Source of the DNA: a virus
Lineage: Duplodnaviria > Heunggongvirae > Uroviricota > Caudoviricetes
Virus record (IMG/VR): IMGVR_UViG_2925903241_000005
Location: 1 to 46,437 of that record
Strand: one strand, 5' to 3'
Length of the DNA stretch: 46,437 nt
Both the position numbers and the translations under genes were made by a program. Under the pieces are notes generated by a model. The model was not told where the DNA came from. It ran no database searches and was given only the letters and a program-made list of their open reading frames with translations. Shown here piece by piece: positions 45,297-46,437 of this stretch (the stretch's first letter is position 1; each line of letters opens with the position of its first letter).

Positions 45297-45731
45297 TTAG
45301 GACGCTTTAGACTTGGTCATATTAGCGCAACGCTGGATTAATTTCTCTGCAGTCTTAATCGCGGTGCTTGATTGGGTTGGCGTAATAGTGTCGTTAAGTC
45401 TGTAATCACAAACTATTCTCTGATCCTTAAGCGATTGAAGAGCATACCCCAAACCAATTAAGTCTCTTTTTTCAAAAGGTTCGTTACCCTTCCAAGCATC
45501 GTTAACAAGATAGTCAATGAGGCCTTGGTGACTTTCTTTCGGCCCCATGGTCAAACACGGAAGTACGTGGTGATAAGCACCATAATACGCACGTGCGACA
45601 GCGTTTCTGTAACCAATTTCGTCGTTACGCTTTTCACAATCTTTTGCGAAAGCGATAAAATCGGAACTATTAACTGGCACGCGCAGGTTCCTCCAAACGC
45701 CCTTCAAACCATACGCTGAAGGGTTTTCCAA
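45297..45731 (-). CDS. hypothetical protein with HEPN-like R-x6-H motif
   Basis: 144 aa; ..RNAVARAYYGAYHHVL.. contains R-x6-H; overlaps the 3' end of the upstream gene by about 60 bp. Confidence 0.35.
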   Translation of the reverse strand: MENPSAYGLKGVWRNLRVPVNSSDFIAFAKDCEKRNDEIGYRNAVARAYYGAYHHVLPCLTMGPKESHQGLIDYLVNDAWKGNEPFEKRDLIGLGYALQSLKDQRIVCDYRLNDTITPTQSSTAIKTAEKLIQRCANMTKSKAS

Positions 45732-46437
45732 TCAAACTTTCATTTTCTGCAAGAGAAAATGCTATATCCAAGTTCATATCAGAGAGAACATCAGAATCTT
45801 CAGTATTAACTGCCATGACATATGATGACGTACGCTCTTCAGGGATAGAGCAGAAAGACATAGCAACAGGACTAACTTTATGGTCAGCCATGATATCCAC
45901 TATGCGGTTTGCAATATCCTGTAGTTCTTCATCAGTAATTCCAGTTGCACTTTTGAAGGTCGTGGATTGGGCCAGTGCTGTGGCTGCGAGGTGCTTAACC
46001 AATTCAGCCTCCTTTTCATCTACCATACTTATCAATCTCTCAGCATAGTAGAGCGCTTTGTCAATACGCCCCAAGAACAAGTTAGCTTCCCATGCATGGG
46101 ACAGCATCGTAGGGGAGTTATAACGTTCAACTAATCGATTTACCACTTGTTCAACTTCACGGAAGCTGCCGTAATCGTTGAGATAAACTACATAATTTTG
46201 AGCAATGATCAGGTTGTTATGCTTCAATGCTTCTTCAAAGAATGCAACTGCAGTATCTTTACGCCCAAAAGCACCATTAGCCAACGCTTTGAGATAGTCC
46301 TCAGATGCGCTGTCGCGCAACTTTTCTATATCTCTGATATAACGAAAATATTGCATTTCGGATATCGTATTCCGAGCCGCAAGAATATCGATTAATTCAC
46401 TGCTGATTTCGTTCGCTTTTAGCGCCGGCTGTGGCAT
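45670..46437 (-). CDS. hypothetical alpha-helical protein (possibly 5'-truncated by window edge)
   Basis: 255 aa; ATG sits at the last bases of the window, so upstream extension cannot be excluded; forms an operon with the 144-aa gene. Confidence 0.35.
   Translation of the reverse strand: MPQPALKANEISSELIDILAARNTISEMQYFRYIRDIEKLRDSASEDYLKALANGAFGRKDTAVAFFEEALKHNNLIIAQNYVVYLNDYGSFREVEQVVNRLVERYNSPTMLSHAWEANLFLGRIDKALYYAERLISMVDEKEAELVKHLAATALAQSTTFKSATGITDEELQDIANRIVDIMADHKVSPVAMSFCSIPEERTSSYVMAVNTEDSDVLSDMNLDIAFSLAENESLIGKPFSVWFEGRLEEPARAS

What the first reader, a model, noticed from the sequence alone, without database searches (positions are those of the whole stretch)
45297..46437. Two-gene minus-strand module outside the prophage with an HEPN-like motif protein
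A helical protein of at least 255 aa and an overlapping 144-aa protein containing R-x6-H (..RAYYGAYHH..) form a compact operon ending at a hairpin terminator, next to prophage-boundary debris. HEPN-type RNases paired with a larger partner are a recurring architecture of abortive-infection and toxin-antitoxin systems. The motif match is weak, so this is only a candidate.
Basis: inference. Interest (0 to 1): 0.55.

Follow-up and report, generated by a model that had tools for sequence, protein, structure and literature searches.

The report
Phage-borne TPR plus HEPN gene pair
The two genes are a real, strictly linked cassette carried as optional cargo by temperate phages of enteric bacteria: a repeat-protein partner followed by a small HEPN-fold protein. 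It most likely acts as a toxin-antitoxin-like or anti-phage module, but nobody has tested this family.

Summary
Gene A (45670-46437, minus) is complete at 255 aa. Gene B really starts at GTG 45680, giving 127 aa rather than 144, and overlaps A by 11 nt behind a GGAGG. A 12-bp hairpin terminator follows B.

B is a HEPN-fold protein of the PF05168/UPF0332 ("HEPN-T") clade. The family profile matches solved HEPN proteins (E=7e-8), and the best fold matches are nearly all HEPN proteins. The canonical motif position holds R88-x3-D92-Y93, with no histidine.

A is a TPR-like array plus a small alpha/beta domain. It is not the nucleotidyltransferase that normally partners this HEPN clade.

In 96 of 96 loci, A lies immediately upstream of B. 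The pair occupies at least four different cargo slots in prophages and occurs in two sequenced Klebsiella phages.

The module is not outside the prophage. It lies between an integrase remnant and the tRNA-Pro attR copy, and sibling prophages carry a DUF2971 or an AbiL-like gene next to their integrase.

Best reading (about 0.5): a toxin-antitoxin-like or abortive-infection cassette with B as RNA-targeting effector and A as its keeper or sensor. Neither protein matches a PADLOC model, and both PHROG families have unknown function. New variant of a known kind; interest 0.5.

The parts
45670..46437 (-). Gene A, 255 aa, complete. It has an N-terminal TPR-like helical array (about residues 1-165) and a C-terminal alpha-beta-beta-alpha-beta domain (169-246).
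45297..45680 (-). Gene B, 127 aa, GTG start. A HEPN-fold protein of the PF05168/UPF0332 (HEPN-T) clade.
   Evidence: RefSeq WP_001145023.1. Family alignment. Profile hits to PDB HEPN proteins. Pfam HEPN in 23 of 29 members. Model pLDDT 91.9 with mostly HEPN proteins among its best PDB matches. phrog_5176 E=5.8e-30.
45670..45694 (-). A/B junction. It holds GGAGG (45690-45694), the GTG start of B (45678-45680) and the TAA stop of A (45670-45672). The 11-nt overlap implies translational coupling.
   Evidence: Read from the sequence. In 60 of 65 unique pairs from other loci, B's start overlaps A's end by 1-20 nt; the example junctions printed carry a purine-rich Shine-Dalgarno-like stretch inside A.
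45402..45419 (-). R88-I-V-C-D92-Y93, the HEPN-T version of the Rx4-6H motif. There is no histidine, and Y93 is the conserved Tyr.
   Evidence: R88, D92 and Y93 are at least 95% conserved in 53 unique sequences. They align with 'RnrSDY' of 9xbd and 'ReeSDY' of AF0298. The D-for-H variant is described for PF05168 in PMC3710099, Table 1.
45567..45593 (-).
   Evidence: R30, Y32, Y33 and H37 are at least 95% conserved. The string aligns with 'sRAYYAmF' of 9xbd and 'aYYAmFH' of AF0298.
45264..45291 (.). Intrinsic terminator hairpin shared by B (minus strand) and the integrase remnant (plus strand).
   Evidence: Perfect 12-bp stem, 4-nt loop, dG -18.3 kcal/mol, z -3.9.
44913..45262 (+). Integrase 3' pseudogene. 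It is the remnant of the int gene that lies convergent with A-B in related intact prophages.
   Evidence: PGAP 'recombinase, frameshifted, missing N-terminus'. It is 72-95% identical to the 3' end of the intact int. It is collinear at 76-79% identity with the int 3' end, terminator and B end of L021, L023 and L024.

Best explanation
A and B form a self-contained two-gene cargo cassette (a 'moron') of temperate phages of Enterobacterales. I think it most likely works as a toxin-antitoxin-like, abortive-infection or superinfection-exclusion module.

B is the effector. It is a HEPN-T protein, presumably a dimer, and its conserved polar cluster (E21, R25, N26, R30, H37, H51, E67, R88, D92, Y93) would bind RNA and probably cleave it.

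A is made first from the same mRNA and would hold B inactive. Its TPR array would act as a peptide- or protein-binding sensor, either of an incoming phage's protein or of B's own conserved C-terminal -AA/-AS tail. Release or activation of B would arrest the cell.

Shown:
- the gene structure and the HEPN fold of B;
- the TPR plus small alpha/beta fold of A, and the absence of a nucleotidyltransferase partner;
- strict A-to-B linkage with coupled translation;
- purifying selection on both genes;
- mobility of the pair between cargo slots of prophages.

Inferred:
- RNase activity and toxicity of B;
- neutralisation of B by A;
- the trigger and the anti-phage phenotype.
For: - B is HEPN-T.
- Seventeen residues, ten of them polar, stay at least 95% conserved while family identity falls to about 34%. 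That pattern suggests an active or ligand-binding site rather than a scaffold.
- A lies immediately upstream of B on the same strand in 96 of 96 loci. Eighty of those are viral contigs fetched with B alone.
- In 60 of 65 unique pairs the two genes overlap by 1-20 nt. This is the usual antitoxin-first order noted for MNT-HEPN dyads (PMC3710099).
- Divergences of A and B are correlated (Spearman 0.79). A evolves faster, with mean pairwise identity 0.30 against 0.45 for B.
- dN/dS is 0.08-0.14 for both genes.
- The pair occupies four kinds of slot: convergent with the integrase at the prophage edge; after three unrelated Q antiterminator families, ahead of the lysis genes; inside tail modules; and next to umuDC-like genes.
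- Sibling prophages carry other cargo next to the integrase: a DUF2971 protein in the window (PADLOC PDC-S31, E=3.5e-22, and listed as a predicted defence gene in PMC13092281), and an AbiLi-like ATPase pair a few genes beyond it in GTEN_24.
- The only decayed copy seen has a frameshift in B with A intact. No locus has A broken and B intact.
- Some divergent B relatives weakly hit the PADLOC HEPN models HEPN_IX and PDC-M05B.
Against: - No experiment exists for this family.
- The canonical His of Rx4-6H is absent (RIVCDY). I know of no direct demonstration that His-less HEPN-T proteins are RNases.
- The window's own A and B hit no PADLOC model. Their accessions were not found in the stored, truncated parts of the DefensePredictor tables.
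- A has no recognisable DNA-binding or enzymatic domain. How it would neutralise B is a guess, because no A:B complex model could be run.
- In the Q-to-lysis and tail slots the cassette could be expressed late in lytic growth, which would suit a phage-benefit function equally well.
- The single B-frameshift case is n=1.
Confidence: 0.5

Rival explanations
1. B is a non-catalytic HEPN-fold protein that binds a nucleotide, RNA or protein. The A-B complex would serve the phage itself, for example as a counter-defence or a host-takeover or regulatory factor, rather than acting as a toxin-based defence.
For: - The canonical catalytic His is missing.
- Many HEPN domains are inactive binding modules (PMC3710099).
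- Many copies lie in late-transcribed regions, after Q or inside tail modules.
- Phage vB_Kpn_Chronis, whose record gives raw sewage as its source, carries the pair.
Against: - The conserved set R88/D92/Y93 plus H51 matches the HEPN-T pattern for which an alternative His is proposed to support activity.
- The int-adjacent copies are convergent with int and have their own leader and terminator, which fits lysogen-expressed cargo.
- The same slot holds defence-type genes in sibling prophages.
Confidence: 0.22
2. A plain addiction (toxin-antitoxin) module whose role is to stabilise the prophage, with no role in sensing other phages.
For: The architecture is the same as in the main explanation: upstream partner, overlap, and a faster-evolving A. 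The location at the prophage edge next to int is compatible.
Against: - A has no DNA-binding domain for the autoregulation typical of type II systems.
- A TPR sensor-like domain is unnecessary for simple addiction.
- In silico data cannot separate this from the main explanation.
Confidence: 0.15
3. A degenerate member of the MNT-HEPN (HepT/MntA, type VII) toxin-antitoxin family, in which the partner AMPylates the conserved Tyr.
For: B belongs to the nucleotidyltransferase-associated HEPN-T clade and keeps the Tyr (Y93) next to the motif. In 9xbc the aligned Tyr reads Phe.
Against: - A has no nucleotidyltransferase hit in Pfam or NCBIfam, and I saw no GSx10DxD motif on reading its sequence.
- Its predicted fold is TPR plus alpha-beta-beta-alpha-beta.
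- About 130 family representatives are uniform 245-275-aa proteins without other domains.
Confidence: 0.03
4. Decaying prophage debris with no function.
For: In the window it lies next to an integrase pseudogene.
Against: - dN/dS is 0.08-0.14.
- The pair is at least 97% identical in 54 E. coli genomes, 52 of them matched over at least 80% of the query.
- The pair is conserved across genera and across different phage slots.
Confidence: 0.02

Closest known systems
HEPN-T / UPF0332 proteins (Pfam PF05168; AF0298 = PDB 2hsb; PDB 9xbd)
   Same: Same fold and same conserved elements: RaYY...H in helix 2, a conserved His after it (H51), and R-x3-D-Y at the canonical motif position. The D-for-H variant is described for this clade (PMC3710099).
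   Different: B carries extra invariant residues E21, R25 and N26. It is encoded by phages of Enterobacterales. It is never next to a minimal nucleotidyltransferase. The window copy itself scores below Pfam's cut-off (13.2 against 22 bits).
HepT/MntA type VII toxin-antitoxin (MNT-HEPN)
   Same: The partner gene comes first, the HEPN gene second, with coupled translation. A conserved Tyr lies beside the motif.
   Different: HepT is DUF86-type with an R-phi-xxx-H-x-Y motif, and its partner is an AMPylating nucleotidyltransferase (GSx10DxD). Here the His is absent and the partner is a TPR protein with no nucleotidyltransferase features.
HEPN families with repeat-protein partners: LA2681 (fused to, or in an operon with, TPR) and AbiU2 (in an operon with a Sel1-repeat gene)
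   Same: A HEPN protein paired with a TPR- or Sel1-type repeat protein in conflict-system contexts (PMC3710099, Table 1).
   Different: Those HEPN families keep the canonical Rx4-6H motif and are different clades. In the Pfam scan, B matched only PF05168 among the HEPN families. I did not compare sequences with those families directly.
RnlA/RnlB and LsoA/LsoB (HEPN toxins with non-enzymatic antitoxins that defend against phage)
   Same: A HEPN effector controlled by direct protein binding rather than by modification, and carried on mobile elements (general knowledge; PMC8266594 abstract).
   Different: The toxins are much larger and multi-domain, the antitoxin gene lies downstream, and no sequence relationship was detected here.
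DefensePredictor DS-28 (E. coli HEPN 163 aa plus a 252-aa partner, validated anti-phage)
   Same: A two-gene E. coli system with a small HEPN protein and a partner of about 250 aa.
   Different: The gene order is reversed, the HEPN has the canonical RNSVAH motif, the partner sequence shows no evident resemblance to A on reading, and the accessions differ.

Membership tests
HEPN superfamily | All-alpha up-down helical bundle of HEPN type | tested here: met
   The model has pLDDT 91.9 and six helices. Most of the best Foldseek PDB hits are HEPN proteins: AF0298, SSO P95883, TT1696, AbiV, sacsin HEPN, Csm6 and HepT. The best E-value is 3.9e-3 and TM-scores are about 0.6.
HEPN superfamily | Significant profile similarity to an established HEPN family | tested here: met
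   The family profile hits 9xbd 'HEPN domain-containing protein' at E=7.1e-8 and AF0298 at E=0.0068. Pfam PF05168 matches 23 of 29 members, best E=2e-5. The window copy alone gives only E=0.1 and 13.2 bits, below the 22-bit cut-off.
HEPN superfamily | Rx4-6H motif at the canonical position | tested here: not met
   The position reads R88-I-V-C-D92-Y93 in the window, and R, D and Y are conserved in at least 95% of 53 sequences. This is the D-for-H variant described for PF05168, and H51 is a candidate substitute His.
HEPN superfamily | Metal-independent RNase activity | not testable with these tools
   Needs biochemistry.
HepT/MntA (MNT-HEPN, type VII TA) | Adjacent minimal nucleotidyltransferase with a GSx10DxD motif | tested here: not met
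   A gives no nucleotidyltransferase hit in Pfam or NCBIfam. Its fold is TPR plus alpha-beta-beta-alpha-beta. A lies upstream of B in 96 of 96 loci, and none of those upstream partners is an MNT.
HepT/MntA (MNT-HEPN, type VII TA) | R-phi-xxx-H-x-Y motif with an acceptor Tyr | tested here: not met
   The His is absent. A Tyr (Y93) is conserved but sits directly after D92.
TPR repeat proteins (gene A, N-terminal part) | Tandem helix-turn-helix repeats forming a TPR superhelix | tested here: met
Type II toxin-antitoxin module | Two small co-transcribed genes, with the upstream product neutralising the downstream toxin | tested here: inconclusive
   The operon structure and overlap fit, A evolves faster than B, and one natural B frameshift has A intact. 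Toxicity and neutralisation are untested. A has no DNA-binding domain.
Catalogued anti-phage defence systems (PADLOC-DB v2.0.0) | Match to a model of a known or candidate system | tested here: not met
   The window's A and B have no hit at E<=1. Only some divergent B relatives weakly hit HEPN_IX (6 of 24, best 6e-5) and PDC-M05B.
Phage moron (independently mobile cargo cassette) | The same cassette in different genomic slots of different phages, with its own terminator or leader | tested here: met
   The four slot types are the int edge, the stretch after three Q families, tail modules, and next to umuDC-like genes. The cassette has its own terminator and a conserved upstream leader.

The most novel reading that the evidence does not exclude
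A-B is a previously unrecognised family of phage-encoded abortive-infection or exclusion systems. In it, a His-less HEPN-T effector is controlled by a TPR 'clamp' partner instead of by an AMPylating nucleotidyltransferase. The clamp would possibly grip B's conserved C-terminal -AA/-AS tail. Transcription would be gated by a conserved pair of inverted consensus DnaA boxes, tying toxin expression to the host's replication-initiation state.
Probability: 0.25. Interest if true: 0.7.

Novelty: new variant of a known kind. Interest (0 to 1): 0.5.

Why it matters
HEPN proteins of the PF05168/UPF0332 clade are known almost only as partners of minimal nucleotidyltransferases. Here the same clade is locked to a completely different partner, a TPR array plus a small alpha/beta domain.

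The pair travels as cargo in temperate phages of E. coli, Klebsiella, Enterobacter, Citrobacter, Yersinia, Serratia and Pectobacterium. Carriers include uropathogenic E. coli CFT073 and an O25b:H4 strain.

If the pair is a defence or addiction module, three things would follow:
- it would add a new regulatory logic for HEPN effectors;
- it would help show whether His-less HEPN-T proteins are active nucleases;
- it would give a function to two PHROG families (5176 and 17809) that are currently unknown.

It would also mark the integrase-to-att slot of proL-type lambdoid prophages as a swap site for defence cargo. If the pair is not toxic, it becomes a candidate phage accessory or counter-defence factor instead.

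Tried and rejected
- **Nucleotidyltransferase partner.** I looked for nucleotidyltransferase signatures in A and found none.
- **PADLOC.** The window's A and B have no hit.
- **NCBIfam.** Nothing meaningful.
- **PDB by sequence with A.** Nothing.
- **Literature.** Searches for WP_001145023, WP_001136067, WP_001145022, WP_000941198 and the two PHROG ids found nothing. PDB codes 9xbd and 9xbc returned only unrelated papers. 'HEPN' together with 'UPF0332' returned none.
- **DefensePredictor (PMC13092281).** DS-28 looked similar on paper but is unrelated. The A and B accessions are absent from the stored tables, but those files are truncated, so this is inconclusive.
- **INPHARED phages with A by tblastn.** No match at 1e-5. 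My family HMMs then found the pair in two Klebsiella phages.
- **Species-representative genomes.** The scan gave only 2 loci, but that search is limited by its peptide patterns.
- **Plasmids.** No B homologue.
- **Rfam on the operon and its leader.** No credible hit.
- **AlphaFold DB fold library.** Unavailable.
- **Consensus terminator scan.** It missed the hairpin after B because the T-run is partly inside the stem. Folding confirmed the hairpin.
- **Translating the integrase remnant for a protein comparison.** This failed because of stop codons. DNA comparisons were used instead.

Full report
**1. What is in the sequence**

The minus strand of 45297-46437 carries two overlapping ORFs.

The upstream gene, A, spans 45670-46437. 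It begins with an ATG that is the last triplet of the window. RefSeq annotates exactly this 255-aa product (WP_001136067.1) in E. coli O25b:H4, so the gene is complete.

The downstream ORF can be read as 144 aa from a TTG. The real gene B starts at GTG 45680 and gives 127 aa (WP_001145023.1). Three things support this start:
- GGAGG lies 9 nt upstream, at 45690-45694.
- Every homologue begins M-[PSAT]-[VI] at this position.
- PGAP calls the same start.

A's TAA stop (45670-45672) therefore lies 11 nt inside B.

Five bases after B's stop codon there is a perfect 12-bp hairpin with a 4-nt loop at 45264-45291. Its dG is -18.3 kcal/mol with z -3.9, and a U-rich tail follows. The simple consensus scan missed it because part of the T-run lies inside the stem.

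Both genes are under purifying selection. Against copies about 94% identical, dN/dS is 0.12-0.14 for A and 0.08-0.11 for B.

**2. Where the pair sits**

The window is an E. coli prophage of the CPS-53/yfdPQR type. Its right end reads:
- int (42535-43719, plus strand);
- a DUF2971 gene (43857-44813, minus strand);
- an integrase 3' pseudogene (about 44913-45262, plus strand);
- B, then A.

Beyond the window come yejO and narP.

In NZ_CP015085.1 an intact tRNA-Pro lies beside yejM at the far end of the element. A 43-nt exact copy of the tRNA's 3' end lies 440 nt beyond A's start. ARAGORN does not call this copy as a tRNA. A-B is therefore inside the att-bounded element, between the int remnant and attR. 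It is not outside the prophage.

The int remnant, the terminator and the end of B are collinear, at 76-79% identity, with related viral contigs in which an intact int lies convergent with A-B.

That [A B | int] layout also occurs elsewhere:
- in Enterobacter genomes, with 30 nt between B and int;
- in an unassigned assembly;
- in E. coli CFT073, with a paralogous pair (WP_000941198.1, 271 aa; WP_001145022.1, 127 aa) 14 nt from int.

The simplest history is that a sibling phage carrying [DUF2971 | int] recombined or integrated here. That event would have left the older int's 3' end, together with A-B, stacked behind it. This history is an inference.

About 54 of 5,426 complete E. coli genomes carry the near-identical pair, and about 44 more carry the CFT073-type pair. 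No plasmid carries B.

**3.

The window copy alone hits Pfam HEPN (PF05168) only at E=0.1. The family-level evidence is much stronger:
- 23 of 29 homologues hit PF05168, best E=2e-5.
- JGI labels some homologues 'UPF0332 family', and UniRef labels one 'HEPN domain-containing'.
- A profile of close homologues matches PDB 9xbd 'HEPN domain-containing protein' at 7e-5.
- A broader profile built from viral-contig relatives matches 9xbd at 7.1e-8 and AF0298 (UPF0332, 2hsb) at 0.0068.
- The AlphaFold model (pLDDT 91.9, six helices) has mostly HEPN proteins among its best PDB fold matches: AF0298, SSO P95883, TT1696, AbiV, sacsin HEPN, Csm6 and HepT.

In 53 unique sequences that diverge to about 34% identity, these residues stay at least 95% conserved: A12, E21, R25, N26, A27, R30, Y32, Y33, H37, H51, Y57, L58, E67, L81, R88, D92 and Y93.

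It aligns with the 'sRAYYAmF(H)' helix-2 element of 9xbd and AF0298.

The canonical HEPN motif position instead reads R88-I-V-C-D92-Y93, which aligns with 'RnrSDY' and 'ReeSDY' in those structures. Anantharaman et al. [quoted passage not shown] H51 fits that description.

So the fold assignment is solid. Catalytic competence is plausible but unproven.

**4. Gene A is not a nucleotidyltransferase**

The model (pLDDT 91.9) has helical repeats over residues 1-165 and an alpha-beta-beta-alpha-beta domain over 169-246.

- Foldseek gives TMt 0.6-0.72 to three-repeat peptide-binding TPR domains such as HOP TPR1 and CTPR3.
- Pfam TPR hits are sub-threshold in the window copy and reach 8.8e-7 in relatives.
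- Nothing resembling an MNT was found.

Among 1.84 billion representative proteins the family is small, with 77 hits at E<=1e-10. Apart from some short fragments, these hits are 245-275-aa proteins matched end to end, and none is fused to another domain.

**5. A and B are one unit, and the unit is mobile phage cargo**

I fetched 80 IMG/VR viral contigs using only B and added the genomic loci. In 96 of 96 loci an A-family ORF lies immediately upstream of B on the same strand. In 60 of 65 unique pairs B's start overlaps A's end by 1-20 nt, and the example junctions printed carry a purine-rich Shine-Dalgarno-like stretch inside A.

Pairwise divergences of A and B are correlated (Spearman 0.79 over 2,080 comparisons). 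A evolves faster, with mean identity 0.30 against 0.45 for B.

The pair occupies at least four kinds of slot:
- convergent with an integrase at the prophage edge (two integrase families);
- downstream of three unrelated Q antiterminator families (PF06530, PF06323, PF03589) and ahead of the lysis genes, in Yersinia, Serratia and other prophages;
- inside siphovirus tail modules, ahead of the tape-measure gene;
- next to umuDC-like genes.

My family HMMs also find the pair in two sequenced phages:
- Klebsiella phage ST405-OXA48phi1.3, where GenBank splits B into two small ORFs;
- vB_Kpn_Chronis, as gp57/gp58.

Both proteins match PHROGs of unknown function.

**6. Why a conflict function is the best guess**

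The region just beyond the integrase is variable cargo in sibling prophages:
- a DUF2971 protein in the window. It hits PADLOC PDC-S31 at E=3.5e-22. Its exact accession is listed as a predicted defence gene in DefensePredictor, where another DUF2971 protein, DS-45, was validated;
- unknown proteins in strains MLI107 and ACN001;
- a DUF4760 protein, followed by a transposase remnant and an AbiLi-like ATPase pair (E=1.6e-64), in strain GTEN_24.

Several other features fit a toxin-antitoxin-like or abortive-infection cassette with B as effector and A as keeper or sensor:
- the partner-first gene order with coupled translation;
- a slowly evolving, polar-residue-rich B;
- a fast-evolving repeat-protein partner.

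The only decayed copy found has a 5-nt frameshift in B with A intact. The reverse case was never seen, but this is n=1.

There are real caveats:
- The catalytic His is absent.
- The window proteins have no PADLOC hit. Only weak hits of divergent B relatives to HEPN_IX and PDC-M05B were seen.
- No paper mentions the proteins.
- Many copies lie in late-transcribed regions, where a function that benefits the phage itself is equally possible.

I put the main explanation at about 0.5. A non-catalytic or phage-benefit role gets about 0.22, and plain addiction about 0.15.

**7. Comparison with known systems**

The closest family for B is HEPN-T/UPF0332, and B passes the fold and profile tests for it.

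The pair fails the defining tests for HepT/MntA, because it has neither an MNT partner nor the R-phi-xxx-H-x-Y motif.

HEPN proteins paired with TPR or Sel1 repeat partners have been noted for other HEPN clades, LA2681 and AbiU2. The general architecture is therefore known.

The E. coli system DS-28, a HEPN protein plus a 252-aa partner, is unrelated.

I rate the pair as a new variant of a known kind.

**8. Limits**

- Both structures are predictions.
- No A:B complex could be modelled.
- The AlphaFold DB fold library was unavailable.
- The DefensePredictor tables are stored truncated.
- The scan of species-representative genomes was pattern-limited and returned only two loci.

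Noticed in passing
L001 13786-13810 (minus strand; 206-222 nt upstream of A's ATG, just beyond the window's right end); also L011, L012, L016, L026, L027, L029, L005, L030 and L055: The roughly 260-nt leader upstream of A is conserved across genera. It contains an inverted pair of perfect consensus DnaA boxes (TGTGGATAA-N7-TTATCCACA), often with a third TTATGCACA box, plus a conserved AGCACTTTTTG block. Of 60 unique loci, 25 have at least one consensus box in the 300 nt upstream and 18 have at least two, against about 0.01 expected per locus by my own estimate. Variant copies of the element are also present in the Q-slot copies, so it belongs to the cassette and not to attP. 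Rfam finds nothing there.
   Followed up: partly
window 43857-44813 (minus strand): This is the DUF2971 gene between int and the int remnant (WP_000183538.1). It hits the PADLOC candidate PDC-S31 at E=3.5e-22 and phrog_1762. DefensePredictor's E. coli table lists this exact accession as a putative novel defence gene (log-odds 7.9, remote similarity to AbiGi). In Enterobacter and CFT073 prophages the A-B pair is what lies next to the integrase.
   Followed up: partly
B C-terminus, window 45300-45323 and homologues: B's tails are unalignable between subfamilies (...MTKSKAS against ...VYPSEPAA). Even so, 30 of 53 unique sequences end in -AS (16) or -AA (14), against about 7.5% of neighbouring ORFs. 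The tail could be a ClpXP-type degron or a C-terminal peptide held by A's TPR domain. Neither idea was tested.
   Followed up: partly
L001 14030-14072 and L097 9222-9298 (NZ_CP015085.1): A 43-nt copy of the 3' end of tRNA-Pro (attR) lies 440 nt beyond A, and the intact tRNA-Pro lies beside yejM at the other end. The window starts about 290 nt after the intact tRNA-Pro and ends at A's ATG, so it covers nearly the whole integrated element.
   Followed up: yes
L098 6781-7969 (E. coli CFT073, NZ_CP051263.1): Uropathogenic strain CFT073 carries a diverged A-B pair (271 aa plus 127 aa) 14 nt from the integrase of a yfdPQR-type prophage next to glaH. About 44 complete E. coli genomes carry this type.
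   Followed up: partly
L070 about 7001-7351: In one viral contig B carries a 5-nt deletion (frameshift near codon 18) while A is intact. It was the only decayed copy among the 96 loci.
   Followed up: yes
L099 5001-5396 (Klebsiella phage ST405-OXA48phi1.3, MK416008.1): B is an intact 131-aa ORF here, but GenBank annotates it as two small hypothetical ORFs. The pair lies just ahead of the tape-measure gene.
   Followed up: yes
L101 4018-4383 (Yersinia phage YP3, PV092592.1): A B-like protein (HMM E=6e-19) sits in a baseplate gene cluster with no A-family gene upstream. This was the only B relative seen without A.
   Followed up: no
L104 6067-9367 (E. coli GTEN_24): A sibling prophage with an 88%-identical integrase carries other cargo just beyond it: a DUF4760 protein, a transposase remnant, and an AbiLi-like AAA ATPase (PADLOC E=1.6e-64) with a 167-aa partner. 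This suggests a swap site for defence-type cargo.
   Followed up: partly
L005-L007, L055-L063 and L096 (Q-to-lysis slot): In 15 loci the pair lies directly next to an orphan N6/N4 DNA methyltransferase gene (350 aa). The HEPN-T clade is reported to cluster with restriction-modification genes (PMC3710099). The methyltransferase is absent from the int-slot copies.
   Followed up: no
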